This document shows, in pieces, positions 19,832-34,202 of a stretch of 64,000 bases of DNA; the first letter of the stretch is position 1; the number at the start of each line of letters is the position of its first letter. This stretch comes from Escherichia coli. GTDB lineage: Bacteria; Pseudomonadota; Gammaproteobacteria; Enterobacterales; Enterobacteriaceae. The notes beneath the pieces are model-generated. The model was not told the DNA's origin, ran no database searches, and was given only the letters and a program-made list of their open reading frames with translations. The stretch lies in the NCBI GenBank assembly GCA_902500125.1, contig GCA_902500125.1_4132.1; one strand, given 5' to 3'. Made by a program: the position numbers and the translations under genes.

Positions 19832-19838
19832 ATAAAAT

Positions 19839-21086: not shown

Positions 21087-22196
21087 TTATTTCGGCATTG
21101 TAATTGCAGACCATGAGTTCGTGGTAATAGGACCTGGCACATACAAAAAAGAACCACAAGCATAAATTTGATTATTACCATCAAATACTATACTAAAATG
21201 TGCACATGTGTATAATGCTGATTTTTCTGGGTTGTAATTATCTAAAGTTAGTGTATTGGTGAATCTACTCAAACCACCACCAGAACCATTTCTACCAAAT
21301 TCACCAGTACTGTATATCTTTCCTTCGGTTGTTGCGTACATATTAACATATGAAGTCGCACTTGATTTTGATATTTTATGTATCTTACTATCAATAGTAG
21401 TGGAGTTAAATGCAAATGGATATACTTGTGTGTTCGTTGTAATACCGTTACCAAGTTGACCAATATACTGCCAACCTGCGTTGTATATATTGCTGGCTGA
21501 ATAAGCAAGAGTACCAGTACTGTTACCACCAAATAGTTTAACACTTGTTAACCTGCTTACTAGTGTAGTATACTGTCCGGGACTTACGCCAAGTGAACCA
21601 TATCCACTGCTCCCGCAACCGAGAAGTTCATTATTTGATGTTAATATTAATGTGTTATTCTGTGTACCCAATATATCAAGGACTGTATTAGCTCCGGTAT
21701 TAACAACTGAAACAAAAGTACTCTGAACCGTGGAATACCCACCACCGAGTGAATAGTTACCATTCATGCCTCTACCATAAACAATCGAACCACTAGCATC
21801 AACGTAGTGCATTGTATCTGCACCAATTGATATCATTTTAATATTAGATATATGTGGAAATGAAGAAGTAACATTCAAACCACCCAACGGAATCATAGTA
21901 TTTCCTGTGCCTAATTGTGTGGTAACTCCATGCATTATGAATTCTTCACCCTTGAGATAAAGAATATTGTACGCACCAGCCCATGCATCAGTAACACCTT
22001 CTGAAATTAATATCCAAGTATTTCTTGTTGCTGTATTTTCAACGTTTAACTGCAAATACGTATTAACCCCACAACCATAAAGTGAGCCATCGCCATAGAG
22101 GACGTACAAATTATCAAGACCGCACAGAACTTTCTTTATCTTTGGAGCTTCAGGTGCAATATTTCCGTACTTAACCATTCTAGCAAAAGGTAACAT
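21087..22196 (-). CDS. MLPF-tagged RCC1-like beta-propeller repeat protein (369 aa)
   Basis: MLPFARMVKYGNI; GWQYIGQLGNGITTNTQ, GSSGYGSLGVSPG, GMNGNYSLGGGYS; SD overlaps stop of upstream gene. Confidence 0.75.
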   Translation of the reverse strand: MLPFARMVKYGNIAPEAPKIKKVLCGLDNLYVLYGDGSLYGCGVNTYLQLNVENTATRNTWILISEGVTDAWAGAYNILYLKGEEFIMHGVTTQLGTGNTMIPLGGLNVTSSFPHISNIKMISIGADTMHYVDASGSIVYGRGMNGNYSLGGGYSTVQSTFVSVVNTGANTVLDILGTQNNTLILTSNNELLGCGSSGYGSLGVSPGQYTTLVSRLTSVKLFGGNSTGTLAYSASNIYNAGWQYIGQLGNGITTNTQVYPFAFNSTTIDSKIHKISKSSATSYVNMYATTEGKIYSTGEFGRNGSGGGLSRFTNTLTLDNYNPEKSALYTCAHFSIVFDGNNQIYACGSFLYVPGPITTNSWSAITMPK

Positions 22197-22206
22197 AAAT
22201 TCCTCC

Positions 22207-23386
22207 TTAAATTTGTGGCAATTGGTATTCAGTTAAAGTCCATGTACCAACAACTGTCCCTACTGGAGACATACCAGTGTAGTATAATTTCCCACTCACA
22301 TATGCAAATAATGCATTGTCATTCGCAGCAACCAACGATGTTGACGGATCATAAACTACAGAATTTGGAAATTGTGCTTGGACGAAAATTGAAGCATTAT
22401 TAGATGAATTGTTACCAAGCTGTCCATAATTATTATACCCTGTTCCAAAAATACGACTTCCATTTCTATATAATAATCCCCTAGGGTTTTGTGAATATGT
22501 TTGTATAAATTCAAAATCGGAAACATTAGTTAATTGTAAATAAGTACTTTGTGGCGTTAAAGATATCTTATTAGTATTAGATAGAACACCATTTCCTAAT
22601 TGTCCGTGAATTTTGTGACCCTACACCATATAGCGGATAAGTATTATCTACATTAAGAACTATACCCAACATATTGTTATATGAAATTATATCAACTGGG
22701 TACTGGCCTGTAGGAAAACTATACTTTGTCCAACTCGTCAAAGTATCAGTAGCAGAACCAGTTAACAATGTACCAGTACTAGTTTTACCACATCTCCATG
22801 CTGAATTATCATTTTTAATTATCCAAGTTGGACTATTGAAAAATGAACTAACCTTTTTAACATTAATATTAACCTGTGTAAATGATGTAAGTGTAGATGA
22901 ACTACTACCCAACTCATAGGTTGAATTATCACCTATTGCGTAAAGAACACTATCATTTGTTAGTAAAAACATATTACGAACATTTGGATATATCTCCTTG
23001 ATATTATCCACATTAAAACCTAAAAAATAAGACGTACAATCAACAAATGTAGTACTTTGAACTGCCCTAGATGTACCAGTCCAAAAGTTCCAACCTGCAT
23101 AATAAAATTTATTATCATTGGTCTGAACTAAGCTATATGAAGCATTCCTTGTGCACCAAAAATTTTTCACATTTTGCATTAAGCGAACCCATTTGGTCTG
23201 TGTCGTTGTATTTCCAAGACCGAATATACCAGCATTGTTACCGCCAATACCCCACAAATCACCGTTCTTATACAGAATCATCAATGTGTTGTTGGTAAAA
23301 GCCGATGGTGCTTGCATTTTAATTACATTAGATTCATATACAGGTGCTATATTCCCGTACTTTAACATTCTCCCAAAAGGTAACAT
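22207..23386 (-). pseudogene. MLPF-tagged propeller paralog interrupted by a frameshift near 22620-22632
   Basis: ORF 23386..22577 (MLPFGRMLKYGNI, 269 aa) hits TAA. Shifted frame continues ..GHKIHGQLGNGVLSNTN..NYGQLGNNSS.. to TAA 22207-22209. Summed length about 392 aa equals the paralogs. Confidence 0.6.
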
Positions 23387-23394
23387 ATTCCCTC

Positions 23395-24570
23395 CTATTC
23401 CGGTAAAATCATTTTCTTCATTTTAACTTGTTGTGTACCTGGACTCTGTTCCTGAAACATAGACCCGTTACCACACCAGTACACCTCATTAGTACCCACT
23501 AACGCGTATAACACACCAGAACCACCTTGTACTGAAAATGCATTAACATCTGGTGCAACATCCATATCCTCATATTGTACCTGGTGGTAATAAGATCTTT
23601 CTGATGCAGTAGTAACAGGCCAACCAAGAGGAACACCACTACCACATGTATAAAGTTTACCATTCTGTGTCATTGCCATTATAAAATAATTCAAACTGTG
23701 ATTGTTCATCGACCCAGCATCTGGTATAATACCACTAATTGCAGGAGTGGTACTAAATGGACTCATGATAATAGTAGTGTCGCCATACCCTATTCCTAAA
23801 CAATAATCAGTGTTTTTTCCAGCAGTATATACATTAATCTTATTTCTATTGGATGTAAGTACTGAAGTGGTTTCAGGAGTACATGAAATACCAATAACTG
23901 TTCCAGATATATCAGTACTTACTGTAAATGTGGATAGTTTAGATGAACTTGAACCTAGGTTATAACTTGCATTATTACCACATCTGTAATATTGTCCATT
24001 TTTTACAAAATGGAAAGCACCACCCGACTGTGTTCCTGCGATTAAAGTAACACCCGTGTTAATCAAAATAGGTGTTGATTTTATTCCAGTAACACCCAAT
24101 TCACCCCCAGCATTACGGCCTATCCCATATAAGTTACCATCACTTAACAGAATTAACAAAGAACCATTGGATGCGGTAGTTTCGGTAGAAGCTATATCTT
24201 GAACTGTAGTAAGGCTTGGAATTGTAGACAATATAGATGTAATATTAGTCCATCCGGGAACAGGTGATGCAGATACACCGACATAGTTCATTTGCCCTGC
24301 TAAGTAAAATTCTCCGTCAGTCGTAAGTATAATTGTCCCTGCGAATAAACACCAAACATTAGAAACTTTATATGGACACTGTACCCACCCATTTTGTACA
24401 TACTCCGTACTATTATTTCCTAGCCTATAATGTGCACCACTTCCACGTAGATATAAGTTACCACTATCAAATAACATACCCATATGTGATGACGATGTAC
24501 TAATCTTTAATACACCAGAAGGTGCAGGTTTAATATTTCCATACTTAACCATTCTTGCAAAAGGTAACAT
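23395..24570 (-). CDS. MLPF-tagged RCC1-like beta-propeller repeat protein (391 aa)
   Basis: ORF 24588 trimmed to ATG 24570 (MLPFARMVKYGNI); GRNAGGELGVTGIKS; stop TAG overlaps SD of next gene. Confidence 0.75.
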   Translation of the reverse strand: MLPFARMVKYGNIKPAPSGVLKISTSSSHMGMLFDSGNLYLRGSGAHYRLGNNSTEYVQNGWVQCPYKVSNVWCLFAGTIILTTDGEFYLAGQMNYVGVSASPVPGWTNITSILSTIPSLTTVQDIASTETTASNGSLLILLSDGNLYGIGRNAGGELGVTGIKSTPILINTGVTLIAGTQSGGAFHFVKNGQYYRCGNNASYNLGSSSSKLSTFTVSTDISGTVIGISCTPETTSVLTSNRNKINVYTAGKNTDYCLGIGYGDTTIIMSPFSTTPAISGIIPDAGSMNNHSLNYFIMAMTQNGKLYTCGSGVPLGWPVTTASERSYYHQVQYEDMDVAPDVNAFSVQGGSGVLYALVGTNEVYWCGNGSMFQEQSPGTQQVKMKKMILPE

Positions 24571-24634
24571 ATTTCCTCCTTTATTCATTATACTATATTT
24601 AATACAAAAAGAAAAGCCAGTACTCTGTACTGGC
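24571..24634 (-). promoter_or_regulatory. terminator + late-type promoter/SD cassette
   Basis: Hairpin 24634-24616 + T-run, TTAAATATAGTATAATGAATAAAGGAGG. Confidence 0.6.
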
Positions 24635-24641
24635 CTATATT

Positions 24642-25379
24642 TTAGACTGAATTGTTAGGATAATATCTCCCACGTCCCCATATTATTCGCACAGCACCAC
24701 CACCAGCAGCCGTATAAGAAAAATTATCCCATATACTACCACCACCACCATACATCTTACCAGCACCACCACTACCAGCACCACCATTATATGAACCATC
24801 GTATCTACCGCCAATACCATTAGCACCTTGAACAATGATACCAGTACCACCACCCGTACCAATGAACGAGGTATTATAGAATGCACCACCACCACCGCCG
24901 CCGCCAGCACCATTTTCACCAGTGATTGCATCTCCGTTACCACCTTTACCAGTGTAGCCACCAGCACCACCACCAATGACTGCACCACCACTTACACCAG
25001 CGTTGCCCCCATTACCACCACCATCATTAATAGCGTTAGCAGCTTTCCCACCTAGTCCACCAACCCTATATTCACCAGTGAAGCTAACACATAGTTTTTC
25101 AGTTCCACGATATAAACCGTTTTCAACTGCTGTAGTAGTGTTGGGATGTGTAAGAGAAACACTTAAGTACTCACCACTAGTAACCGGAATATTATTACGC
25201 CACGATAAGCCGCCGCCAGCACCACGTTGACCACCCGGCGAAATAACACATACTGATATTTCGGTAACGCTAGCAGGAACTGTAAATTGTGTTGTTCCTA
25301 TTGTCGTGATTAATTGTTCACCATGTGGCTTATATTCAATTTCATTCCCGTACTTAATCATTCTTCCAAAAGGTAACAT
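24642..25379 (-). CDS. MLPF-tagged glycine-rich protein (245 aa), tail-fibre-like Gly-rich domain
   Basis: MLPFGRMIKYGNE, then QFTVPASVTEISVCVISPGGQ and long GGxGG runs (GAGGGGGGGAFYNTSFIGTGGGTG); no propeller repeats. Confidence 0.7.
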   Translation of the reverse strand: MLPFGRMIKYGNEIEYKPHGEQLITTIGTTQFTVPASVTEISVCVISPGGQRGAGGGLSWRNNIPVTSGEYLSVSLTHPNTTTAVENGLYRGTEKLCVSFTGEYRVGGLGGKAANAINDGGGNGGNAGVSGGAVIGGGAGGYTGKGGNGDAITGENGAGGGGGGGAFYNTSFIGTGGGTGIIVQGANGIGGRYDGSYNGGAGSGGAGKMYGGGGSIWDNFSYTAAGGGAVRIIWGRGRYYPNNSV

Positions 25380-25445
25380 AATTCCCTCCTTTATTCATTA
25401 TAATATATTTAATACAAAAAAGAAAAGCCAGTACAAAGTACTGGC
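25380..25445 (-). promoter_or_regulatory. terminator + late-type promoter/SD cassette
   Basis: Hairpin 25445-25427 + T-run, TTAAATATATTATAATGAATAAAGGAGGG. Confidence 0.6.
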
Positions 25446-25452
25446 ATAGTAT

Positions 25453-26580
25453 TCAAAAAGGTAAATCAATTTGCTTAGTAATAATAGTATCTAACGGTAT
25501 TGAACACAATGAGAAATTCTTTCCACCCGTATTTTTAGGATTATATCCATTCATCCATACATTATTACCTTCGTAAAATGTATTCCAGTATAAAGACCCA
25601 CTATATCGTGTATTCGAATTGAACGATGTAAAATTGAATTCTTGAAATGCTGTAAAATATGGAAGGGAACTTGAACTACTTCCCGTAAATGGGGTATGCC
25701 CAGTTGCTATTAGTTTGTTTGTATCTGCATTAATTAAAAATACAACACTAGTCGAATAGTCCAACGAATCAGGATGATATATATTACTCATATCACCTAT
25801 AGTAAAACCAACATCAAAAACTTTACTATGTGCACCACTACCAGCAAAAGTAGTTCCAGTTGCATATATTTTATTATCAGATGTTATCATTACAAAACCA
25901 ACACCAGAAACAAAACTGCATTTTATATCATAAGATATATCATCAAACAACGGAACAAATGTGGTTGCATCACCCGATGTTGCTTTAACTTGAAAGCTGT
26001 TATTTGAACCTGAACCATATACAGTTCCATCGTTTTTAATCTTAAACAATGTATCGCCAAGGTAACCGCCAAATATATTATCCACATTAGTGTCAAGTAC
26101 AGTCCACGCTGAAACATAATTTTTATGTCCTAAACCTAATGAACCACTTCGATTCCATCCTCTTCCATAAAGTGTTCCGTCTTTCATTAATATAAATGCT
26201 GTATAACCACATAACATTTTTTTAATTTGGGTAACATCTATACCAGTGAAATACACAGCCCAGTCAGTATATCCTTGTTGGAAAGTATTAGAATTCGTGA
26301 ATGCATATGTTGAACCTGAACCATATATTTTATCACCTTTAATAACAACGGAAAACGATCCTAACCATAAGTCATCAACTTCAGTTGTGATTTGTTGAAC
26401 TGCTCCTAACGATACAAACTGTGTACTTAAACCCGCATTATAGTTTGAATCTTCACCGTGTGCATATACAGTGCCATCTTGCATTAGAAACATTTCAAGA
26501 GTGTAACTAACAACACTTTTCTTTATATTATTAACTTCGATTATATTCCCATAATCAAACATTCTAACAAAAGGTAACAT
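25453..26580 (-). CDS. MLPF-tagged RCC1-like beta-propeller repeat protein (375 aa)
   Basis: MLPFVRMFDYGNI; GWNRSGSLGLGHKNYVS, GSGSNNSFQV. Confidence 0.7.
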   Translation of the reverse strand: MLPFVRMFDYGNIIEVNNIKKSVVSYTLEMFLMQDGTVYAHGEDSNYNAGLSTQFVSLGAVQQITTEVDDLWLGSFSVVIKGDKIYGSGSTYAFTNSNTFQQGYTDWAVYFTGIDVTQIKKMLCGYTAFILMKDGTLYGRGWNRSGSLGLGHKNYVSAWTVLDTNVDNIFGGYLGDTLFKIKNDGTVYGSGSNNSFQVKATSGDATTFVPLFDDISYDIKCSFVSGVGFVMITSDNKIYATGTTFAGSGAHSKVFDVGFTIGDMSNIYHPDSLDYSTSVVFLINADTNKLIATGHTPFTGSSSSSLPYFTAFQEFNFTSFNSNTRYSGSLYWNTFYEGNNVWMNGYNPKNTGGKNFSLCSIPLDTIITKQIDLPF

Positions 26581-26642
26581 ATTTCCCTCCTTTATTCAAT
26601 ATACTATATTTAATCAAAAAAAGCCAGTACTCAAGTACTGGC
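26581..26642 (-). promoter_or_regulatory. terminator + late-type promoter/SD cassette
   Basis: Hairpin 26642-26623 + T7, TTAAATATAGTATATTGAATAAAGGAGGG. Confidence 0.6.
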
Positions 26643-26649
26643 ATATCAA

Positions 26650-27816
26650 TTACGAAAAACGTGGATCATCAAGAACAAACACGGTACTACTTGGACCACC
26701 TTGTGTGGTGACAGCACTAGTACTGTAAAGAAAGTTACCATCTGTCATATAAGTTCTACGATTCGTACAAATAACTCTTACTTTATTCATATCGATATCA
26801 GGATTAGGTAATGGACATGAAGTATACACTGATACATCAGTACTTGTTCCTATTCCCAGCGTACCTTCATTTGTGGTTGAACCGCTATTCAACCCACTAG
26901 CATATATACCACTGCTTGTAATAACAAAAGTGGCGTAGAATGGAGAACCTTCACCTATATTTAATTTAGTTCCAGGTGGTTGTCTTGCCGCAGCAACCGC
27001 ACCATATGCTTTCCCACCAGATGTGGCAAGATTACCAAGAGCACCATACTGTTGTTGTCCACCATTATACACTGTGTTAGTGCCATCACTGTTAGTGTGG
27101 ATACCAATAGAATTATAGTTACTGTTGCTATATACTAAAGCGGCATTAGAAGTAACTGTATTTCGTGTATATACTTTATATTGTTGGGTAAAATTACCAC
27201 TAGTGGACGTACCCTGTACAGTTCCAGTGTAGTATATATATCCGTCTGTACCAATGAATGAGTGCATAACACTACCTGCAAAAATTTTTTCTGGAGTAAC
27301 ACCTGACGGTATTGTTGATTGTACAAATCTACCCACTACATTTGTTGTTGTATTATTTCCCAATTGACCGGAGTCACCATAACCACTTGACCATATGGTA
27401 TTGTTCTCAAGAAGAACACTAATTGATAATCTTGATAAAGCTATTTCTTTAACATCACTTTCTAATGTATCAAAAAATGAAGTACAATTTGTCCAAGTGT
27501 TCACTACGCTAGAACTAACACCAATTTGTTTATTATCACCAGAACTATAATAATTCCCATCATATGTTTGTATAAGTATAACAGAACCACCAACCCATAC
27601 TTTATCAACTGAACCAAACGTTCTTGTCCATGTGGTAACTATATCCCCGCTATTATTACCCAATCCAAAGCAACCACTACTATCTACGCCTCGTACATAT
27701 AAATCTCCTGAAGTCATCAGAACTGCACAGAATGATTGTGCACCTTTAACATCTTTAATTGGCTCTGGTTCAGGTGCAACATTTCCATAATCAAACATTC
27801 TTACAAAAGGTAACAT
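26650..27816 (-). CDS. MLPF-tagged RCC1-like beta-propeller repeat protein (388 aa)
   Basis: MLPFVRMFDYGNV; GYGDSGQLGNNTTTNV, NEGTLGIGTSTDVS, QQYGALGNLATSG. Confidence 0.75.
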   Translation of the reverse strand: MLPFVRMFDYGNVAPEPEPIKDVKGAQSFCAVLMTSGDLYVRGVDSSGCFGLGNNSGDIVTTWTRTFGSVDKVWVGGSVILIQTYDGNYYSSGDNKQIGVSSSVVNTWTNCTSFFDTLESDVKEIALSRLSISVLLENNTIWSSGYGDSGQLGNNTTTNVVGRFVQSTIPSGVTPEKIFAGSVMHSFIGTDGYIYYTGTVQGTSTSGNFTQQYKVYTRNTVTSNAALVYSNSNYNSIGIHTNSDGTNTVYNGGQQQYGALGNLATSGGKAYGAVAAARQPPGTKLNIGEGSPFYATFVITSSGIYASGLNSGSTTNEGTLGIGTSTDVSVYTSCPLPNPDIDMNKVRVICTNRRTYMTDGNFLYSTSAVTTQGGPSSTVFVLDDPRFS

Positions 27817-27865: not shown

Positions 27866-27894
27866 TTGACATCCTTTCAGTACTGATGTACTAT
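27866..27894 (+). promoter_or_regulatory. sigma70-like promoter for the family A array
   Basis: TTGACA 27866-27871, 17 nt (contains CAGTACTG), TACTAT 27889-27894; divergent from the minus-strand block. Confidence 0.55.
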
Positions 27895-27919
27895 AGAATG
27901 AATATAAGGAGAACTGCAC

Positions 27920-28147
27920 ATGACAAATACTTTTAAGTACTACCTCAATACTCTAAATGAACTAGAGTACGCGAAGTTTCTCGCGGATTGTTCGTGGCTA
28001 ATTGAGCTAAAAAAATATAACAGTACTGGATGTAACCTTATGCTGAACAATGCACTTGATACCCTTGTAGTGAGCATTTTACACAACAACATCTGCGGGG
28101 ATAGAAACAAACAATTATCAAAAATCTTAGTACTGCTATCTATATGA
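27920..28147 (+). CDS. family A small protein (75 aa, divergent first member)
   Basis: AAGGAG upstream; MTNTFKYYLNTL... Confidence 0.6.
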   Translation: MTNTFKYYLNTLNELEYAKFLADCSWLIELKKYNSTGCNLMLNNALDTLVVSILHNNICGDRNKQLSKILVLLSI

Positions 28148-28347
28148 ATATCGAACAGTACTACATCGATGCACTACCAACAAAAGGTCTACGTGAAAGC
28201 CTACTGCATACACAAACTAATTTCAAACACCTCAAACGTAGCCCTAAACTCCTGAACTCGTACAGGAATAATAACATAAGAAATGCTTTACAAGGGGTAG
28301 AATGTATGCAATACTATTACATCCTTACCCTATTAATCGAGTACTAA
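28144..28347 (+). CDS. family A small protein (67 aa)
   Basis: ATGA overlap; MNIEQYYIDALP...LTLLIEY. Confidence 0.65.
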   Translation: MNIEQYYIDALPTKGLRESLLHTQTNFKHLKRSPKLLNSYRNNNIRNALQGVECMQYYYILTLLIEY

Positions 28348-28348
28348 T

Positions 28349-28558
28349 ATGAATACTGAACATAAAGAATTCTACACCAAATACCTTAGCAACGAAGAAC
28401 AATTGTTTCTAAGGAGTGTATCACCTGTAAGTACCAATACTCAATTCGGTAGAGATTGCTTTAATAATTGTATACGTAGTACTCTAGAAGCAATCGAATG
28501 CAATAACAAAAATATTATGTACTCAGGTTTAATAGGACTAATATATTTCTATGAATAA
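28349..28558 (+). CDS. family A small protein (69 aa)
   Basis: TAAtATG junction; MNTEHKEFYTKYLS...IGLIYFYE; close paralog of 31333. Confidence 0.65.
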   Translation: MNTEHKEFYTKYLSNEEQLFLRSVSPVSTNTQFGRDCFNNCIRSTLEAIECNNKNIMYSGLIGLIYFYE

Positions 28559-28745
28559 TCATAAAGATTTCTATTGTAGTAAACTACCCAAACAAGAACA
28601 GCTATCATTCTCTTTAGCACCACCTATGAGAAAGGATAATCTGTATTATAATTACGATTTCAGGATGGTGACACGTTATGCAATAGAACATCAATTTCCT
28701 GAAACTAAGTACTTATCTATCATGAACATCATCTTTAAGTTCTAA
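28551..28745 (+). CDS. family A small protein (64 aa)
   Basis: 8-nt overlap; MNNHKDFYCSKLP...; close paralog of 31535. Confidence 0.65.
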   Translation: MNNHKDFYCSKLPKQEQLSFSLAPPMRKDNLYYNYDFRMVTRYAIEHQFPETKYLSIMNIIFKF

Positions 28746-28756
28746 AAGAGTACTAT

Positions 28757-28969
28757 ATGAAAACTATGAACATTCATCAGTACTACTTGGATATTCTCCC
28801 TAAAGATGTACAGTTCATCCTTAAACAAGAATACAGTACTTTAAAAAACCTTAAAAGAACCGCACCGAATGTATTAATCCTGCACCAAGAAAATGTAGTT
28901 GATAATATTCTACAAGGTGTACCAGGAACCGAGTACTTTAACATAATAAGGCTAATTACATTACCATGA
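28757..28969 (+). CDS. family A small protein (70 aa)
   Basis: M(KTM)NIHQYYLDILP...; family alignment would favour ATG 28766. Confidence 0.6.
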   Translation: MKTMNIHQYYLDILPKDVQFILKQEYSTLKNLKRTAPNVLILHQENVVDNILQGVPGTEYFNIIRLITLP

Positions 28970-29151
28970 ATCATATATTATACTATTACCAAAATCTATC
29001 CGACAGGGACAAGTACACCCACAACTCCCATGTATGGTACTACAAACGCGGTAGTATAAGGGACAAACAACATTACTTCAGTACTGCTATAAAAGAAACA
29101 CTAACAACTAAGTACACGTACAGAGCAGTACTGAAACTTATTGATATGTAA
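28966..29151 (+). CDS. family A small protein (61 aa)
   Basis: ATGA overlap; MNHILYYYQNLS...AVLKLIDM. Confidence 0.6.
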   Translation: MNHILYYYQNLSDRDKYTHNSHVWYYKRGSIRDKQHYFSTAIKETLTTKYTYRAVLKLIDM

Positions 29152-29161
29152 AGAGAATACT

Positions 29162-29347
29162 ATGAATACATTTGAGTACTATACAAATAAACTATCTATG
29201 CCAGAAAGATCTCATCTCTATGTGTGGAGAAATGCGTATAAAAGCGGCAATAAACTTATACAAAGAAATTCCCTTACAGTGTGTACAAATTTAATTAAAG
29301 CAGAGTACCGCACATATATTGAAGTACTGAAACTAATCTCTATCTAA
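29162..29347 (+). CDS. family A small protein (61 aa)
   Basis: ORF-track TTG 29141 trimmed to ATG 29162 (AAGAGA upstream); MNTFEYYTNKLS...EVLKLISI. Confidence 0.6.
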   Translation: MNTFEYYTNKLSMPERSHLYVWRNAYKSGNKLIQRNSLTVCTNLIKAEYRTYIEVLKLISI

Positions 29348-29355
29348 GGTACTCT

Positions 29356-29535
29356 ATGCAAGAATTCTATATCTATAAACTTCAGCACAAAGATAGATAC
29401 AACTATAATAAATTCCAAAGGTACTACACAGTCGGGAACAAAAGAGATAAAAAACGATACTTTCTATCATGTACAGTAGAAGCACAAAACGAAAAGTACA
29501 CGTACAGAGAAGTACTGAAACTCATCTCTATGTAA
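29356..29535 (+). CDS. family A small protein (59 aa)
   Basis: Not in ORF track (<60 aa); MQEFYIYKLQ...EVLKLISM. Confidence 0.55.
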   Translation: MQEFYIYKLQHKDRYNYNKFQRYYTVGNKRDKKRYFLSCTVEAQNEKYTYREVLKLISM

Positions 29536-29543
29536 GGAATAAT

Positions 29544-29723
29544 ATGCAAGAATACTATATAGAACACATAAACATTAAAGACCGTTTCATGTACGACACC
29601 TTCGTGAAGTACTACAACCTGGCAACTAACAGTACTAAAAATATTAATCTCAATAGCTGCATTCATCACGCACTAACAAAAGATAATCCCTTCAGGGAAA
29701 TCCTCGCACTAGCATCTGTATAA
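29544..29723 (+). CDS. family A small protein (59 aa)
   Basis: ORF 29469 trimmed to ATG 29544 (AAGGA upstream); MQEYYIEHIN...EILALASV. Confidence 0.55.
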   Translation: MQEYYIEHINIKDRFMYDTFVKYYNLATNSTKNINLNSCIHHALTKDNPFREILALASV

Positions 29724-29733
29724 AGGAAACCAA

Positions 29734-30393
29734 ATGAAACTTAATGCACACAGCAAACAATACCTTAAGCACTTTAAGTACCTCAACAGTATTCAAGCAG
29801 AATCTATTACATCTGCATATACGTATCACCCTAATGTACTAAAGAAACGAAATAAAAAGAAAAAATCCAGAAATGTTCTCGTATCTAAGAACCTCAAATC
29901 GTACTTGAAGAAAAATAATATAGCTCTTGCTTTTATTAATATCTATCATACTGATTTAAAAGTATTGAGTACTAATACCAGCACAAAAGCACTAAAGAAT
30001 GCATCTATCTATATACACATGGATAATATCCCGTGCACTATAATTCTATCTTTCGGGAATGTATACTTCTTCGGGAATTGTAATAGCACCCATGATATCA
30101 GTACTGCACAATTCCAAATCGGCGATATGTACTGCATGGGTTCAGAAAAAATACACGATAACATGCACTTCTTCCAAAAGCAACGTACTAACGAAACTGA
30201 TACAGTACTGCAATTCCTCAAAGAACTACAAAACAAAGAATTAACACCAGAAGAAGAATTCATGTACAGTACTGTAATCGATAATCCAGAACTCTATAAA
30301 AACGCGTACAAACTAACAAAACATGTACAGGAACTTATCAGTACTGATAAGAAATTTCATAACCTCATTACGTATATTACAAACTATGTATAA
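29734..30393 (+). CDS. family C-related protein, long form with basic N-terminus (219 aa)
   Basis: AAGGA upstream; KKRNKKKKSRN N-region; TPEEEFMYSTVID resembles the EEYFQxSL motif; interrupts the family A array. Confidence 0.6.
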   Translation: MKLNAHSKQYLKHFKYLNSIQAESITSAYTYHPNVLKKRNKKKKSRNVLVSKNLKSYLKKNNIALAFINIYHTDLKVLSTNTSTKALKNASIYIHMDNIPCTIILSFGNVYFFGNCNSTHDISTAQFQIGDMYCMGSEKIHDNMHFFQKQRTNETDTVLQFLKELQNKELTPEEEFMYSTVIDNPELYKNAYKLTKHVQELISTDKKFHNLITYITNYV

Positions 30394-30571
30394 AGAATAC
30401 TACATAGAGAAACTCCCAATGTATCTCCAACACCTTCTACCAACAGAACCATTGGGTATAGAAAAAAACTACGAAAAAGACTACTTCATTCAGTGCACTA
30501 AATCCTCGATATATATTGAAGACTATAATCGAGTACTGTATCACATCCTTTTACTAATATATAGGTACTAA
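30386..30571 (+). CDS. family A small protein (61 aa)
   Basis: ORF 30323 trimmed to ATG 30386; MYKEYYIEKLP...ILLLIYRY. Confidence 0.6.
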   Translation: MYKEYYIEKLPMYLQHLLPTEPLGIEKNYEKDYFIQCTKSSIYIEDYNRVLYHILLLIYRY

Positions 30572-30572
30572 T

Positions 30573-30755
30573 ATGCACAAAGAATACTACACACAATTTC
30601 TCCCCAGCATTTTTGAACACTACGCCAGATACAAAGTCCCTATGGATAACGATTTGGCAGTACTGGGATTCAATAACTGCATAGAACGAAGTATAGAAAA
30701 TAGTAGTAGTTATGACCAGCTATATAACACTATCCTACTTATATTCAGGTACTAA
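30573..30755 (+). CDS. family A small protein (60 aa)
   Basis: TAAtATG junction; MHKEYYTQFLP...TILLIFRY. Confidence 0.65.
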   Translation: MHKEYYTQFLPSIFEHYARYKVPMDNDLAVLGFNNCIERSIENSSSYDQLYNTILLIFRY

Positions 30756-30756
30756 T

Positions 30757-30945
30757 ATGCATAAAGAATACTACACAAAATATTTCCCAATGTACCTCAG
30801 TACTAATCTATTAGATAAACCTCGCGGTATCAATGCACAAAACGATAAAGTGTACTTTACTATGTGCACTAAAGCATGTATACTAGATTTTGACAGCTAT
30901 CATCGAGTACTGTATCATACCCTGTACCTAGCTTTCGTATTCTAA
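30757..30945 (+). CDS. family A small protein (62 aa)
   Basis: ORF 30712 trimmed to ATG 30757 (TAAtATG); MHKEYYTKYFP... Confidence 0.65.
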   Translation: MHKEYYTKYFPMYLSTNLLDKPRGINAQNDKVYFTMCTKACILDFDSYHRVLYHTLYLAFVF

Positions 30946-30954
30946 AAGAACAAT

Positions 30955-31140
30955 ATGCATAAAGAATTCTACTTAAGCCATCTCGATCTAAACTCCCAAA
31001 TGCTTATACCACTAATCCCAATAGATATCAAGGATAAGAAAAATACCGAACAATTCATTTACCATACACAGTGTGCGATCACCCCAAATTACATTCCATA
31101 TGAATTGTACTACATTATCGCCCTAATATATAGGTACTAA
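30955..31140 (+). CDS. family A small protein (61 aa)
   Basis: MHKEFYLSHLD...IIALIYRY. Confidence 0.65.
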   Translation: MHKEFYLSHLDLNSQMLIPLIPIDIKDKKNTEQFIYHTQCAITPNYIPYELYYIIALIYRY

Positions 31141-31141
31141 T

Positions 31142-31327
31142 ATGCATAGAGAATACTACACACAATTTGTTAAAGGGAACTACAAACATGCCGTACCCAG
31201 AACCCCTTTAAATTCTCATGACCCAAGTACTATATTCTTGTTTAATGACGCAATACGTACAGTACTCAATACTAAAGATGAACAAGTGCAGTACGTATTC
31301 TTACTATTACTTATATACAGACACTAA
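31142..31327 (+). CDS. family A small protein (61 aa)
   Basis: TAAtATG; MHREYYTQFVK...LLLLIYRH. Confidence 0.65.
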   Translation: MHREYYTQFVKGNYKHAVPRTPLNSHDPSTIFLFNDAIRTVLNTKDEQVQYVFLLLLIYRH

Positions 31328-31332
31328 CTAAT

Positions 31333-31542
31333 ATGAATAAAGAACATAAAGAATACTACTCCAAACACCTCAGCCCCTCAGAACAAATGTTTCTAAGGAC
31401 TACTCCACCTTTAAGTACTAATACATTTTTCGGCAGAGTATGCTACAATAATTGTATTCAAATGACTTTAAACGCAAACGAAGATGGTAACAGTACTAAC
31501 CTGTACTCAGGTATCATAGGTATACTATTCCTGTATGAATAA
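31333..31542 (+). CDS. family A small protein (69 aa)
   Basis: MNKEHKEYYSKHLS...IGILFLYE. Confidence 0.65.
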   Translation: MNKEHKEYYSKHLSPSEQMFLRTTPPLSTNTFFGRVCYNNCIQMTLNANEDGNSTNLYSGIIGILFLYE

Positions 31543-31723
31543 TTACAAAGACTTCTATTTGAATACACTACCTACTGTACTTTCTCTAAGTGCTCAATGT
31601 AAAATCCCGCTGGATAATGCTTACGCCAGATATAGCTATTCCATAACTGTTAATCGATGTATAGAGAATCATTGCAGTACTAACCAGTACTATAACATAA
31701 TCCTACTTATATTCAGGTACTAA
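31535..31723 (+). CDS. family A small protein (62 aa)
   Basis: 8-nt overlap; MNNYKDFYLNTLP...IILLIFRY. Confidence 0.65.
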   Translation: MNNYKDFYLNTLPTVLSLSAQCKIPLDNAYARYSYSITVNRCIENHCSTNQYYNIILLIFRY

Positions 31724-31724
31724 T

Positions 31725-31907
31725 ATGAATAAAGAACATAAAGAATTCTATATACGAAAACTAACATTCGTCCCCGTAAGAATATATAAAGAATGCGACC
31801 CAAGATTATACCTATGGCACTTCAATGAGTGCATAAAAGATTCTATATACCATAAGAACTATAAAGAACAATTGTGCTCAGTACTAACACTAGTACTATC
31901 ATATTAA
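31725..31907 (+). CDS. family A small protein (60 aa)
   Basis: TAAtATG; MNKEHKEFYIRKLT...VLTLVLSY. Confidence 0.65.
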   Translation: MNKEHKEFYIRKLTFVPVRIYKECDPRLYLWHFNECIKDSIYHKNYKEQLCSVLTLVLSY

Positions 31908-31922
31908 TTAATAGAGAATACT

Positions 31923-32114
31923 ATGTATAAAAACTTCTATATAAGTAAACTAAAAGAAAATGAACAAGTATGGATTAGATCTATAATTCCACTGGCATTT
32001 AATAGATATGCATTTAACAGATGTACCGAGATTGCTATAGACCCTTATAATATTAAAGAGAATGTACAGTATAATCAGTACTACTATATCTTAATGCTTA
32101 TATATAGAAAGTAA
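31923..32114 (+). CDS. family A small protein (63 aa)
   Basis: AGAGAA upstream; MYKNFYISKLK...ILMLIYRK; last member. Confidence 0.65.
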   Translation: MYKNFYISKLKENEQVWIRSIIPLAFNRYAFNRCTEIAIDPYNIKENVQYNQYYYILMLIYRK

Positions 32115-32130
32115 TTAAACACATAGAGAC

Positions 32131-32222
32131 AGGGGAAGCTCCTAGTGAACAACCTTTATGTACAGGCGAATTGTTAAAATTCAGCCTGGACAAATGCGAT
32201 CACTAGGATTCTCCCCAGGCTA
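32131..32222. repeat. interleaved inverted repeats (A-B-A'-B')
   Basis: A GGGGAAGCTCCTAGTGA 32132-32148 / A' TCACTAGGATTCTCCCC 32200-32216; B AGCCTGG 32183-32189 / B' CCAGGCT 32215-32221. Confidence 0.45.
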
Positions 32223-32290
32223 AACCCCGTAATCATAGGTAGTCATAAGTAATCATATATAAACATTTATATGAGCACCGTAGAATCACA

Positions 32291-32388
32291 GAATGATTAT
32301 ATATGATTCAGTACTGATTAGTATAGACAAGATTGCTCAAGAATGCACGGAAATGTGTGTGAATGATTATATATGATTCAGTACTGAT
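32291..32388. repeat. 28-bp direct repeat pair
   Basis: GAATGATTATATATGATTCAGTACTGAT at 32291-32318 and 32361-32388. Confidence 0.8.
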
Positions 32389-32674
32389 ATGCCACTAAGT
32401 AGGCAGAGGAAGTCTGCCGTACTTTGTAGTTTCCAAGCTCCTTTTCCATTTTGCAAATTACATCAAATGTAATCAAAAGTAATCACACAATGATTAGTAC
32501 TGAATTATTACTTTCACCTTAATTACAATTACCCTTTTACCCTTCGGGGTAAAATTCCATTACCCCTTGAGGCTCCAGCAAAAAGTTGGTTAGTACTCCA
32601 TCCTAAATCTCGATCCTAAAAATTTTGGAGTACCTATGAAATAAAAGTTGGATCTTCGAAAGTTGAAATTTACG

Positions 32675-32704
32675 TTGGGACGTTTATGATTTGTGGGATA
32701 TAAT
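32675..32704 (+). promoter_or_regulatory. possible promoter (weak -35)
   Basis: TTGGGA 32675, 18 nt, TATAAT 32699; same layout as 6022-6051. Confidence 0.35.
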
Positions 32705-32762
32705 GATGTTTGTAGTCGGGTAGTTCTCAAGAATATCAGTACTGAATAATGAAAGAAAGCTA

Positions 32763-32790
32763 TTGACATTATGATTCAGTACTGTATAAT
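32763..32790 (+). promoter_or_regulatory. sigma70-like promoter with no downstream ORF
   Basis: TTGACA 32763-32768, 16 nt (CAGTACTG), TATAAT 32785-32790, GTTCTACATAGAGAG start region; no SD or ORF follows. Confidence 0.55.
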
Positions 32791-32976
32791 GTTCTACATA
32801 GAGAGATGAGTTGCCGCAAACAATTCATTCACTCTACCTCCTGTCGTGAGACAGTACTGAAAGGATAGTTCCTCCTATGGGTGGTACATCTTTTTATAAC
32901 CTCTTTTTTCGTAATATAAACAGTACTGATATTAACAGAATGGTGTCAGTACTGATTTTAATCTAAAGCATTATGC

Positions 32977-32995
32977 CACCAGCTTGTGCTGGTGG
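32977..32995. other. hairpin made of Chi and its complement
   Basis: CCACCAGC-ttgt-GCTGGTGG; + strand Chi at 32988-32995. Confidence 0.8.
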
Positions 32996-33192
32996 ATTCC
33001 CTCTAACAGTATTCAGTACTACATGATGGTCTTCATCCTCCTAGGGTAACATAGTGAGGGCTATGATGGCAGTACTGAATACTCCCTTTCAAAAGATAGA
33101 TCTATGGTATAGTACTGACGGATTTTGGGTGTAGTTACCCTGGGTGGATTTTGGACGTAGATATGTCTAGCCCTCCAGAAGTCTGGAAGTAA

Positions 33193-33328
33193 AGATGGCT
33201 ATCCATCTAGACGGCTAAACGGCTAGATTTCTGGATGGCTGGATGGCTAGATTTCTGGATGGCTGGATGGCTAGACGTTTGGACGGCTAAACGGCTAGAT
33301 GGTTACACGTCTGGAAGTATAGACGGCT
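33193..33328. repeat. iteron-like array of the octamer RRAYGGCT (10-11 copies), with 24-bp tandem unit x2
   Basis: AGATGGCT 33193, AGACGGCT 33209, AAACGGCT 33217, GGATGGCT 33233/33241/33257/33265, GGACGGCT 33281, AAACGGCT 33289, AGACGGCT 33321; flanked by GTCTGGAAGTA 33181 and 33309. Confidence 0.8.
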
Positions 33329-33489
33329 AAATCAAAATTTTATTTTGTTTTTTCCAATAGTTCCCCTACCGCGTGGGGATAGTTTCCCCGCAGTATCTGG
33401 AGTTAGATTTTTCTGAATCTGGAATCATTATCTTATAAACTGGGGGCAATGTCAACGGCCTGGACGGATATTTTTAAAAATTTTTTCAG

Positions 33490-33580
33490 TACTGAATTTT
33501 GGGCGTAACTATGCACCCGGTGGGCTTGAGTCTTTCTCGACTTGATGGAACTATTATACAGTACTGAAAAAATAAAGCAA
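33490..33580 (-). promoter_or_regulatory. U element: promoter + conserved transcribed core
   Basis: Minus strand TTGCTT (33580-33575), 16 nt, TATAAT (33558-33553), then ...ATCAAGTCGAGAAAGACTCAAGCCCACCGGGTGC (core 33525-33513). Confidence 0.45.
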
Positions 33581-33639
33581 TACCCTGGAAGCAAAAAAAT
33601 TTTAATTAATTTGCTTGCTATCCTGGGCCGGACTATGGT

Positions 33640-33702
33640 ACTATATTTCAGTACTGAGAAAGTGCGTTTGCCTGCTAGGGTGCGGGAGTGTATCCTTTTT
33701 TT
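33640..33702 (+). promoter_or_regulatory. U element, degenerate copy (core + T7)
   Basis: CTAGGGTGCGGGAGTGTATCC 33675-33695 followed by T7; no good promoter; converges on next element. Confidence 0.3.
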
Positions 33703-33711
33703 ATATCTTGA

Positions 33712-33796
33712 ATTTTGGGCGTAATTCCGCACCCCCTGGGGTTTCCGCTTTCTCGCGTCTATGTAGTAATTATACGCTTTTTCAGGATCAAGTCAA
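33712..33796 (-). promoter_or_regulatory. U element: promoter + conserved transcribed core
   Basis: Minus strand TTGACT (33796-33791), 16 nt, TATAAT (33774-33769), TACTACATAGACGCGAGAAAGCGGAAACCCCAGGGGGTGC. Confidence 0.45.
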
Positions 33797-33949
33797 TACC
33801 TAAAAACAAAATAATTGAAAATAATTTAACGCGTTTAAACGGCCCGTAAAGCCCTGGAATGATTAGAATGGTGCAAATGTATAGCTTAGGTGTATTAATG
33901 CGTTAGAATGCGTCTGAGGCCGTTTTACGGGGTATAGGGATGATTTAGT

Positions 33950-34115
33950 GGATTGATTCAGTACTGAATAATAGTACTCCTATATAGAAAGATAGTTCCC
34001 CTGGATTGATTCAGTACTGAATAATAGTACTCCTATATAGAAAGATAGTTCCCCTGGATGGTTGCAGTACTGAATGATAGTACTGAATAATAGTTCCCCT
34101 ATATAGAAAGAAAAC
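33950..34115. repeat. 53-bp tandem repeat, 2 exact copies + 1 diverged
   Basis: GGATTGATTCAGTACTGAATAATAGTACTCCTATATAGAAAGATAGTTCCCCT at 33950-34002 and 34003-34055; variant 34056-34115. Confidence 0.85.
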
Positions 34116-34142
34116 TATTTTAAAAGTATTTGTAGAAAGTAC

Positions 34143-34202
34143 TTGCAAACTAAGTTTAACGGCGTATAATGTTTTACATCGAGAGCGGGAACACTTCCCG
34201 CT
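34143..34202 (+). promoter_or_regulatory. PeSL-like cassette (early-type promoter + stem-loop)
   Basis: -35 TTGCAA 34143; -10 TATAAT 34165 + GTTTTACATC; hairpin 34184-34202; ATG 34226. Confidence 0.7.

What the first reader, a model, noticed from the sequence alone, without database searches (positions are those of the whole stretch)
27920..32114. Family A is a tandem array of 18 paralogous genes of about 61 aa
Eighteen head-to-tail ORFs of 59-75 aa share an N-terminal (K)E(Y/F)Y..(L)(P/S) and a central (F/C).N.C(I/T) with one conserved Cys. They also share a C-terminal Y..(I/L)L.LI(F/Y)R(Y). Many are joined by TAAtATG or ATGA. A two-gene unit (28349-28745) is duplicated at 31333-31723. One unrelated 219-aa gene interrupts the array. 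There is no recognisable domain. An expansion this large in one small early-strand gene resembles the gene accordions seen in virus-host arms races. That suggests an anti-defence, decoy or titration function, but this is inference only.
Basis: partly seen in the sequence, partly recalled or inferred. Interest (0 to 1): 0.7.

Follow-up and report, generated by a model that had tools for sequence, protein, structure and literature searches.

The report
Diversified small early-gene array, jumbo coliphage
A giant E. coli phage carries about 18 back-to-back genes for tiny, related but strongly diverged helical proteins, apparently switched on early in infection; related phages gain and lose them as whole-gene cassettes, and what they do is still unknown.

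Summary
The array is real. The window comes from an Asteriusvirus jumbo coliphage (121Q/PBECO4 group). Eighteen + strand genes of 59-75 aa lie head to tail around a conserved 219-aa gene. They are not 18 equal paralogs. Eleven form a solid core (PHROG 11711, unknown function). Four (A06-A09) and two (A02, A05) are separate subfamilies linked to the core only by profile methods. A01 is at best a very distant member. They are coding (dN/dS about 0.35) and restricted to the genus. Two members give confident small all-helical models with no informative fold match. A sigma70-type promoter conserved in all relatives precedes the tightly coupled operon. Copy number is 14-22 in 14 genomes/contigs, and all 11 isolates compared differ in gene arrangement. 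Indels are whole genes, with crossovers inside conserved gene junctions. No genome has recent copies (paralogs are at most 59% identical), so this is an old birth-and-death multigene family, not an expanded accordion, and dosage or titration is unlikely. The array lies in a hypervariable island. The best reading, by inference only, is a set of early accessory proteins with paralog-specific surfaces that bind host or defence targets. In passing: the palindrome (C)AGTACT(G) is about 13-fold over-represented across the window.

The parts
27866..27894 (+). Sigma70-type promoter of the operon: TTGACA-17-TACTAT, with CAGTACTG in the spacer. A strong AAGGAG ribosome-binding site follows at about 27905-27910.
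   Evidence: scan. The -35 box is invariant and the -10 box and RBS are conserved in all 11 aligned phages, including divergent JNE01. It belongs to the window-wide promoter class seen.
27920..28147 (+). A01, 75 aa. First gene of the operon, present in every relative. At best a very distant family member.
28144..28347 (+). A02, 67 aa, subfamily g3. Present in all 11 phages compared.
28349..28558 (+). A03, 69 aa, core subfamily (PHROG 11711). Old duplicate of A15.
28551..28745 (+). A04, 64 aa, core. Overlaps A03 by 8 nt.
28766..28969 (+). A05, 67 aa (or 70 aa from 28757), subfamily g3. A variable member, found in 4 of 11 phages.
28966..29151 (+). A06, 61 aa, subfamily g2. Present in all 11 phages compared.
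29162..29347 (+). A07, 61 aa, g2. Variable member (5 of 11 phages).
29356..29535 (+). A08, 59 aa, g2, basic (pI 9.6). Variable member (4 of 11 phages). This is the g2 protein that was modelled.
29544..29723 (+). A09, 59 aa, g2. Present in all 11 phages compared.
29734..30393 (+). Unrelated 219-aa gene (phrog_29152, unknown function). Embedded at a fixed position in every relative, restricted to the genus and fast-evolving.
   Evidence: (39% identity to JNE01).
30386..30571 (+). A10, 61 aa, core. This is the core protein that was modelled. Its 5' end is a recombinant junction left by loss of genes e and f.
30573..30755 (+). A11, 60 aa, core.
30757..30945 (+). A12, 62 aa, core. Contains a candidate internal promoter at 30890-30918 (TTGACA-17-TATCAT, with AGTACTG next to the -10 box).
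30955..31140 (+). A13, 61 aa, core.
31142..31327 (+). A14, 61 aa, core. Present in all 11 phages compared.
31333..31542 (+). A15, 69 aa, core. With A16 it forms a two-gene cassette that is absent in SP27 and 121Q.
31535..31723 (+). A16, 62 aa, core. Mosaic: A04-like at the protein level, with a 3' half that resembles A11 at the DNA level.
31725..31907 (+). A17, 60 aa, core.
31923..32114 (+). A18, 63 aa, core. Last gene, present in all 11 phages compared.
31327..31354 (+). Junction direct repeat, copy 1 (ACTAATATGAATAAAGAACATAAAGAAT).
   Evidence: The SP27/121Q junction is a chimera whose crossover lies inside this 28-nt stretch.
31719..31746 (+). Junction direct repeat, copy 2 (identical 28 nt).
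32115..32168 (.). Right boundary of the hypervariable island. From about 32168 onward JNE01 is 92% identical at the DNA level.

Best explanation
Family A is an old multigene family found only in Asteriusvirus phages. It has three subfamilies, plus a doubtful first gene, and encodes soluble all-helical proteins of about 60 aa.

SHOWN BY SEQUENCE ANALYSIS
- The genes form one tightly packed, translationally coupled operon downstream of a conserved host-type (sigma70) promoter.
- Each protein keeps a shared hydrophobic/aromatic scaffold and an N-terminal H-K-E-[YF]-Y motif, while its surface is specific to that paralog.
- Each ortholog is held under purifying selection.
- Phage lineages differ in which members they carry. 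Whole genes are removed or added by homologous recombination between the short conserved sequences at gene junctions.
- The array sits in a hypervariable island next to highly conserved DNA.

INFERRED, NOT SHOWN
- The proteins are made early and are not part of the virion.
- They act as a panel of small binders, each engaging a different host or defence target during take-over.
- The panel's composition is tuned by cassette loss and gain.
For: - Coding and constrained: pooled dN/dS is 0.35. It is 0.14 at paralog-conserved positions and 0.41 at paralog-variable positions. The ORFs stay intact in JNE01 at only 25-60% identity.
- One superfamily: hhalign and HMM cross-hits.
- Fold: AF2 gives pLDDT 91 (core) and 92 (g2), with helices in the same order in both. 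The conserved columns are hydrophobic with helical spacing, and the rest are hypervariable. There is no transmembrane segment, pI ranges from 5.3 to 9.6, and no polar motif typical of an enzyme active site is conserved.
- Early operon: the promoter and RBS are conserved in 11 phages, and gene junctions are 20 nt or less. The window has 57 strong sigma70-like sites on the + strand against 16 on the - strand. In the related phage CBB, RpoD-like promoters cluster over short hypothetical genes that the authors took to be early host-takeover genes (PMC5259590). The genus relies on host RNA polymerase plus a phage sigma factor (PMC11895373).
- Not in the virion: the phAPEC6 virion mass-spectrometry list has the neighbouring gp549 and gp551 but none of gp540c-548c (PMC7247149).
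- Lineage restriction: 54 clusters among 5.8e9 proteins and 33 representatives among 1.84e9.
- Birth-and-death pattern: 14-22 copies, at least 29 ortholog groups of which 7 are universal, and all 11 arrangements different.
- Cassette recombination: chimeric junctions resolved to the base pair.
- Hypervariable island: the array is 27-59% aa identical to JNE01, against 92% nt identity immediately downstream.
Against: - There is no direct evidence of transcription timing, translation or any binding partner.
- No sequence or fold similarity to any characterised anti-defence or host-takeover protein was found.
- dN/dS gives no sign of pervasive positive selection within the genus, which a current arms race might produce.
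- The dN/dS pairs are not phylogenetically independent.
- Small proteins can escape virion mass spectrometry.
- The g2 model did not retrieve core members in the fold search, so fold identity across subfamilies rests on secondary-structure order and profile comparison only.
- Junction conservation may partly reflect the genome-wide AGTACT signal and ribosome-binding needs, not protein function.
Confidence: 0.5

Rival explanations
1. Tolerated genome filler. The genes are products of past tandem duplication that persist because a large headful-packaging capsid tolerates, or even needs, extra DNA. Their protein function is weak or redundant, and gains and losses are close to neutral.
For: - Hua et al. 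proposed tandem duplication as a route to jumbo-genome expansion and noted such arrays in 121Q (PMC5646251).
- Constraint is relatively relaxed (dN/dS 0.35-0.41).
- Many members are individually dispensable in nature.
- The same window holds a second, unrelated array of at least 23 genes.
Against: - Seven ortholog groups are kept in all 11 phages, and the block architecture is kept even in JNE01.
- dN/dS is clearly below 1 even at paralog-variable sites.
- ORFs are intact in all clean assemblies.
- The promoter, RBS and coupling are conserved.
Confidence: 0.2
2. Small nucleic-acid-binding regulators. The proteins bind phage or host DNA or RNA, for example the abundant (C)AGTACT(G) palindrome in early promoters, and modulate the early transcription programme.
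For: - The g2 members are strongly basic (pI 9.6, net charge +5 to +7).
- The fold is a compact helical bundle.
- AGTACT density peaks in and just after the array and sits in promoter spacers.
Against: - Core members range from acidic to basic (pI 5.3-9.3).
- No HTH or other DNA-binding family or fold match was found.
- Hypervariable surfaces fit poorly with recognition of one conserved DNA motif.
Confidence: 0.12
3. Dosage accordion, decoy or titration. Many copies raise the amount of one activity that soaks up a host factor.
For: - The array is tandem and head to tail.
- Copy number varies.
- The junction repeats can mediate expansion and contraction.
Against: - No near-identical copies exist in any of 11 genomes (maximum 59% aa identity).
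- Surfaces are paralog-specific and conserved within orthologs.
- The duplications predate the divergence of the genus.
Confidence: 0.07
4. Virion-internal or assembly proteins, such as ejected or scaffold-like proteins, encoded next to the virion-associated RCC1-like genes.
For: - The neighbouring RCC1-like proteins are virion components in phAPEC6.
- Paralogous head-protein families exist in phiKZ.
Against: - They are absent from the phAPEC6 virion proteome, although a 4.7-kDa protein was detected there.
- They are driven by a sigma70-type promoter, not a late-type one.
- They lie on the opposite strand from the RCC1-like genes.
Confidence: 0.04
5. Not genes at all: chance ORFs or a DNA-level repeat in AT-rich sequence.
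For: - Several records leave many of them unannotated.
- There is a strong DNA-level AGTACT signal.
Against: - dN/dS is 0.35.
- Conservation is at the protein level, with DNA similarity lost between paralogs.
- ORFs are intact in all clean assemblies.
- AF2 models are confident.
Confidence: 0.02

Closest known systems
PHROG 11711 (phage orthologous group, function unknown)
   Same: The core members tested match it over the full length at E 1e-12 to 8e-28. It is the same protein family.
   Different: The PHROG gives no function. The g2, g3 and A01 representatives tested (A06, A08, A02, A01) do not match any PHROG at E 0.1 or better. The superfamily described here is therefore wider than the catalogued group.
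Multigene families of large eukaryotic DNA viruses, e.g. African swine fever virus MGF110/360/505 (own knowledge, not tested here)
   Same: Both are tandem arrays of strongly diverged paralogs in a variable genome region. Both show presence/absence and copy-number differences between close isolates, and both lack homologs outside the lineage.
   Different: The host domain is different and there is no sequence relation. The proteins here are much smaller (about 60 aa). The MGFs have experimental links to host range and interferon evasion, and nothing comparable exists here.
Poxvirus K3L-type gene accordion (own knowledge)
   Same: Both are tandem head-to-tail arrangements in which recombination between repeated units changes copy number.
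   Different: Accordions are recent, near-identical amplifications that act through dosage. Here the copies are at most 59% identical and ancient.
Early/host-takeover regions of small genes in large phages: the CBB_390-546 region of phage CBB (PMC5259590), and the SPO1 host-takeover module and T4 early gene clusters (own knowledge)
   Same: All have host-type promoters, many short hypothetical genes, tight packing and a presumed early role.
   Different: Those clusters are mostly unrelated ORFans. Here a single family has been expanded and diversified.
Tandem arrays reported in jumbo phages 121Q and G (Hua et al. 2017, PMC5646251)
   Same: Same phage group and the same phenomenon of expansion by tandem duplication.
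   Different: [quoted passage not shown] It is most likely the unrelated family at window 53188-59075, not Family A, which has 16 genes in 121Q.

Membership tests
PHROG 11711 | Significant full-length match to the family HMM | tested here: met
   A03, A04, A10, A11 and A18 score E 1.7e-12 to 7.9e-28 over profile positions 1-62. The other six core members cluster with them at E 1e-21 or better in my core HMM.
PHROG 11711 | All 18 array genes match the HMM | tested here: not met
   A01, A02, A06 and A08 gave no PHROG hit at E 0.1 or better. They link to the core only by profile-profile comparison.
Gene accordion (poxvirus type) | Tandem head-to-tail copies of one gene | tested here: met
Gene accordion (poxvirus type) | Recent, near-identical copies (a dosage effect) | tested here: not met
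   The most similar paralog pair in each of 11 genomes is 48-59% aa identical. The best DNA similarity is 74% over 246 nt.
Gene accordion (poxvirus type) | Copy number expands and contracts among close relatives by recombination between units | tested here: met
   14-22 copies. Chimeric junctions are seen at the A15-A16 and e-f indels.
Gene accordion (poxvirus type) | Amplification arises in response to a defined selective pressure | not testable with these tools
   This needs experimental evolution.
Viral birth-and-death multigene family | Divergent tandem paralogs, with ortholog groups conserved across strains | tested here: met
   At least 29 ortholog groups at 70% identity or more, of which 7 are universal. 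Paralogs are 20-59% identical.
Viral birth-and-death multigene family | Presence/absence polymorphism in a variable genome region | tested here: met
   All 11 arrangements differ. The hypervariable island has a sharp boundary at about 32168.
Viral birth-and-death multigene family | Role in host range or immune evasion | not testable with these tools
   No functional data exist for any Asteriusvirus.
Early host-takeover operon | Conserved host-sigma70-type promoter and strong RBS upstream | tested here: met
Early host-takeover operon | Early transcription and translation shown | not testable with these tools
   No transcriptome or ribosome profile for this genus was found in the library.
Early host-takeover operon | Products absent from the virion | tested here: inconclusive
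   They are not in the published phAPEC6 virion MS list. Absence of small proteins from MS is weak evidence.
Known anti-defence / host-inhibitor protein families | Sequence or fold similarity to a characterised member | tested here: not met

The most novel reading that the evidence does not exclude
The array is a combinatorial cassette library of miniature helical binders. One conserved scaffold presents at least 29 different surfaces across the genus, each neutralising a different strain-specific host defence or take-over target. The conserved gene junctions act as built-in recombination sites, so co-infecting phages can shuffle, drop or acquire cassettes. This would be a phage counterpart of the multigene families of large eukaryotic DNA viruses.
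Probability: 0.3. Interest if true: 0.7.

Novelty: new member of a known kind. Interest (0 to 1): 0.42.

Why it matters
Jumbo phages are full of unannotated small genes, and tandem paralog arrays are thought to be one way their genomes grew. This array is a clean, tractable example for four reasons:
- The operon is well bounded.
- The protein models are confident.
- The mechanism of cassette gain and loss is resolved to the base pair.
- Natural "knock-out" variants already exist among sequenced phages.

If the members prove to be target-specific inhibitors, the family would supply many new small binders of E. coli and Salmonella proteins or defence systems. It would also help predict host range for therapeutic Asteriusvirus phages. 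If deletions have no phenotype, that would support the genome-filler view of jumbo-phage evolution.

Tried and rejected
SEARCHES THAT FOUND NOTHING USEFUL
- Pfam, NCBIfam and PDB sequence searches gave nothing for the small proteins or the 219-aa gene.
- Foldseek against BFVD returned only family members.
- The g2 model gave one weak hit in BFVD, so the structural test of g2-core homology is inconclusive.
- The exhaustive profile search of 1.84e9 representatives gave 33 hits. All except two were small proteins with the family motif, and the two distant ones traced by tblastn come from JNE01/Turkey5-like Asteriusvirus phages. The two long multi-stretch hits (P0061, P0076) are unrelated repeat proteins and were rejected.
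- Rfam and tRNA scans of the array and its flanks were empty.
- Literature searches found no functional, transcriptomic or Tn-seq data for this genus, and no paper describing this array.

IDEAS REJECTED
- Membrane proteins: GRAVY is negative for all but A01 and the C-terminal helix has only about 12 hydrophobic residues.
- Acidic DNA mimics: pI ranges from 5.3 to 9.6.
- Relation to the second array at 53-59 kb: hhalign probability is below 1%.
- A separate promoter for each gene: promoter-like sites in the region are no more frequent than in shuffles, 27 against 33.
- A location in the terminal repeat: the array is at 114 kb in the PhageTerm-oriented UE-S1 record.

DATA EXCLUDED. CMSTMSU was left out of the counts because that unverified record has split ORFs.

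Full report
IDENTITY OF THE WINDOW. Megablast of 27920-32114 finds 34 phage records. All are E. coli or Salmonella jumbo phages of 310-386 kb in genus Asteriusvirus (121Q, PBECO4, slurp01, phAPEC6, SP27, E9.1 and others), at 85-97% identity. The matched span varies from 3.5 to 5.0 kb, which was the first hint of copy-number variation.

THE OBSERVATION.
- The ORF list shows an unbroken run of + strand ORFs from 27920 to 32114.
- Four mechanical ORFs (A07, A09, A10, A12) begin upstream of an inner ATG that restores the shared N-terminus, and A05 has two possible starts. After refinement the 18 genes are 59-75 aa.
- The junctions are five TAAtATG, two ATGA overlaps, three 8-nt overlaps, and otherwise spacers of 5-20 nt.
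- A 219-aa gene (29734-30393) sits between the ninth and tenth small genes.

IS IT ONE FAMILY?
- All-against-all BLASTP splits the 18 into a core of 11 (A03, A04, A10-A18), a group of four (A06-A09, "g2"), a pair (A02/A05, "g3") and A01 alone.
- HMMs of each group recover their own members at E 1e-21 to 1e-43 among 755 window ORFs. They find nothing outside the array, and link the groups only marginally (E 0.01-0.06).
- With deeper alignments from 11 relatives, hhalign gives core-g2 probability 90.5% (E 1.3e-6, 55 columns) and core-g3 73% (E 3e-5). Both are full length and colinear.
- In the divergent phage JNE01 the deeper HMMs cross-hit between subfamilies, e.g. core to a g3 gene at 8.5e-6 and g2 to a core gene at 2.5e-5.
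- A01 against a combined profile scores 18.6 over 59 colinear columns. Twenty column-shuffled controls score 6.0-13.3, but the probability is only 18%.
- I therefore accept 17 genes as one superfamily with three subfamilies, and A01 as a possible, unproven, distant member.
- The core is PHROG 11711, of unknown function. The other groups match no PHROG, and nothing matches Pfam or NCBIfam.

ARE THEY REAL GENES?
- Against positional orthologs in ten relatives, pooled dN/dS is 0.35.
- Split by column class, it is 0.14 at paralog-conserved positions and 0.41 at paralog-variable positions.
- The ORFs remain intact in JNE01, where identity has dropped to 25-60%, and in two metagenomic contigs.
- Paralogs keep protein similarity while DNA similarity has mostly vanished. 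This is coding sequence under purifying, somewhat relaxed, selection.

THE PROTEINS.
- AlphaFold2 with family-only alignments gives confident models. Core A10 has pLDDT 91.2 and pTM 0.75, with helices at 3-7, 12-15, 28-43 and 47-60. The g2 member A08 has pLDDT 92.4 and pTM 0.73, with helices at 2-7, 11-26, 29-44 and 49-58.
- The order and spacing of the helices agree. The second helix of the core is shortened into a Pro-containing loop.
- Conserved columns are H/Y2, K3, E4, Y/F5, Y6, L10, P22, F34, C37 (69%), T/I38, I/L42, Y/L51, L55, L57, I58 and F/Y59. Apart from the N-terminal motif these are hydrophobic with helical periodicity. The remaining positions have 2.5-3.4 bits of entropy.
- The proteins are Tyr-rich (10.7%) and poor in Gly and Ala. 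pI is 5.3-9.6, and there is no membrane-spanning segment.
- So this is a small lineage-specific helical domain: a conserved scaffold carrying variable surfaces.

DISTRIBUTION.
- The word-indexed search of 5.8e9 proteins finds 54 clusters for the core and 26 for g2. Every hit that carries a source name is from an Asteriusvirus phage or an E. coli assembly, and the rest are unnamed metagenomic fragments.
- The exhaustive profile search of 1.84e9 representatives finds 33. Two of these are unrelated repeat proteins.
- The two most divergent members that I traced (P0069, P0073) come from JNE01 and Turkey5.
- The 219-aa gene is equally restricted.

EXPRESSION SIGNALS.
- A sigma70-type promoter (TTGACA-17-TACTAT, 27866-27894) and an AAGGAG RBS precede A01. 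The -35 box is invariant, and the -10 box and RBS are conserved in all 11 aligned phages, including JNE01.
- A second site of the same class lies inside A12 (30890-30918). It is retained wherever gene 12 exists, but that gene is 95-99% identical among those phages, so this is weak evidence.
- Promoter-like sites in general are no more frequent in the array than in shuffled sequence.
- Across the window there are 57 strong sigma70-like sites on the + strand and 16 on the - strand. Many are perfect 12/12 matches.
- In the related phage CBB, RpoD-like promoters cluster over short hypothetical genes that the authors regarded as early host-takeover genes (PMC5259590). Asteriusvirus uses host RNA polymerase plus a phage sigma factor (PMC11895373).
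- Early expression is therefore a well-founded inference, but it has not been shown.
- phAPEC6 virion mass spectrometry lists the neighbouring RCC1-like gp549 and gp551 but none of gp540c-548c (PMC7247149).

COPY NUMBER AND HOW IT CHANGES.
- A uniform HMM classification gives the architecture A01 - g3 - core core (g3) - g2 x n - [219] - core x m in every genome. The g2 block has 2-6 copies, the distal core block 8-12, and the total is 14-22 in the isolates and two metagenomic contigs. The unverified CMSTMSU record was excluded.
- Clustering at 70% identity or more yields at least 29 ortholog groups. Seven are in all 11 phages (01, 02, 03, 06, 09, 14, 18), and no two phages share the same arrangement.
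- The window lacks groups e and f (present in 7 and 5 phages). It has 05, 07 and 08, which many others lack.
- Breakpoints coincide with gene junctions.
- In SP27 and 121Q the A14/A17 junction is a chimera of the window's A14/A15 and A16/A17 junctions. The crossover lies within an identical 28-nt stretch, ACTAATATGAATAAAGAACATAAAGAAT.
- The window's 219/A10 junction is likewise a chimera of E9.1's 219/e and f/10 junctions.
- Short junction segments are up to 96% identical between otherwise dissimilar paralogs, and A16 is a mosaic.
- Gains and losses therefore occur as whole-gene cassettes, through homologous recombination between conserved gene ends.

NOT A CURRENT ACCORDION. In none of the 11 genomes are any two paralogs more than 59% identical. 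The "duplicated two-gene unit" is 74% identical over only 240 nt. The duplications predate the divergence of the genus, so present-day variation is differential retention and exchange.

GENOMIC SETTING.
- Against JNE01, the array (27-59% aa), the 219-aa gene (39%) and the upstream RCC1-like genes (31-42%) are highly diverged.
- DNA from 32168 rightwards is 92% identical, with proteins 88-100% identical. The promoter region is 82% identical.
- The array therefore belongs to a hypervariable island with a sharp right edge.

INTERPRETATION.
- The anatomy and evolution are well supported: an early-type operon of a diversified, lineage-specific, non-virion small-protein family evolving by birth-and-death with cassette recombination.
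- The function is inferred. Conserved scaffold, paralog-specific but conserved surfaces, patchy distribution and island location fit a panel of small binders for different host or defence targets (confidence about 0.5 for the whole statement).
- The main rival is tolerated duplicated "filler", as in the Hua et al. ratchet model (PMC5646251).
- Lesser rivals are nucleic-acid-binding regulators, a dosage accordion and virion proteins.
- A dosage or titration role is disfavoured by the divergence between copies.

COMPARISON AND NOVELTY.
- The core family is already catalogued (PHROG 11711), and tandem arrays in 121Q have been remarked on. That remark, however, most likely concerns the unrelated array of at least 23 genes at 53188-59075.
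- No paper describes Family A or any function for it.
- In concept it resembles the multigene families of large eukaryotic DNA viruses more than a poxvirus accordion.
- I rate it a new member of a known kind, of moderate interest.

SIDE OBSERVATION.
- AGTACT occurs 278 times in 64 kb, against 21.6 expected from base composition. It appears in all codon frames and equally on both strands.
- It is densest in the array (8.6/kb) and in the ORF-poor stretch downstream (10.8/kb).
- It forms part of a promoter class, TTGACA-N8-9-(C/T)AGTACTG-TATAAT.
- It contributes to the conserved "R-Y-stop" junctions (AGG TAC TAA). It may also contribute to the array's preference for the TAC Tyr codon: 62%, against 30% in other long ORFs.
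- Its meaning is unknown, and I found no literature on it.

Noticed in passing
whole window; densest at 27920-34160: The palindrome (C)AGTACT(G) is about 13-fold over-represented: AGTACT 278 observed against 21.6 expected, and GTAC z 10.6 against a max-order Markov model. It occurs in all codon frames and equally on both strands. Density is uneven: 8.6/kb in the array, 10.8/kb at 32115-34160, and 1.4/kb in the second array. No literature was found. It could be an operator or binding site, or a modification target.
   Followed up: partly
window, e.g. 1509, 11857, 32763, 43024, 43338, 46439, 49292, 49783 (+ strand): There is a distinct class of perfect-consensus sigma70 promoters, TTGACA-N8-9-(C/T)AGTACTG-TATAAT. 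The window has 57 strong sigma70-like sites on the + strand against 16 on the - strand, so most of it looks like one large early region. The site at 32763-32790 is conserved in all 14 genomes/contigs examined.
   Followed up: partly
window 3282, 7285, 9131, 14044, 42466, 45854, 48861, 51614 (+ strand): A second repeated promoter-like element has a palindromic start, TTGACTyCGGTCAG. The spacers are identical (ccggtcagtccctttgc) at 42466, 45854, 48861 and 51614. This suggests a repeated regulatory cassette.
   Followed up: no
window 53188-59075 (+ strand): This is a second, larger tandem array: at least 23 paralogous genes of 52-90 aa with a conserved LGTNYQE.Y motif. It is unrelated to Family A (hhalign probability below 1%). 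[quoted passage not shown] 2017 noted in 121Q.
   Followed up: partly
window 18067-27816 (- strand): Eight paralogous RCC1-like / WD40_RLD beta-propeller genes (about 270-410 aa, plus one fragment) are transcribed divergently from the array. Two homologs are virion proteins in phAPEC6. They are as diverged from JNE01 as the array is (31-42% aa), so they belong to the same hypervariable island.
   Followed up: partly
window 32115-34160: About 2 kb lacks any ORF of 100 aa or more, yet it is 92% identical to the divergent phage JNE01. It is packed with TTCAGTACTG-containing repeats, has an exact 53-nt tandem duplication (33949-34054), an exact 28-nt repeat (32291/32361), and an inverted repeat just after the array (32127-32221). 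There is no Rfam or tRNA hit. It may be a regulatory or ncRNA region, or an origin.
   Followed up: partly
window 28001-32000: The coding strand of the array has negative GC skew (-0.16 to -0.22) and strong positive AT skew, unlike other + strand genes of the window. Tyr codons are 62% TAC, against 30% in other long ORFs. This reflects a composition rich in Tyr, Asn, Ile, Leu and Lys and poor in Gly and Ala, and possibly the AGTACT signal.
   Followed up: partly
L012 5585-5770 (phage JNE01, OR670491.1 about 307584-307769): An intact family member (MHNDFYIQKLIDAGLESF...LALRY) is not annotated in the JNE01 record. Several other records (BF17, PBECO4, phAPEC6, CMSTMSU) also leave many array genes unannotated.
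   Followed up: yes
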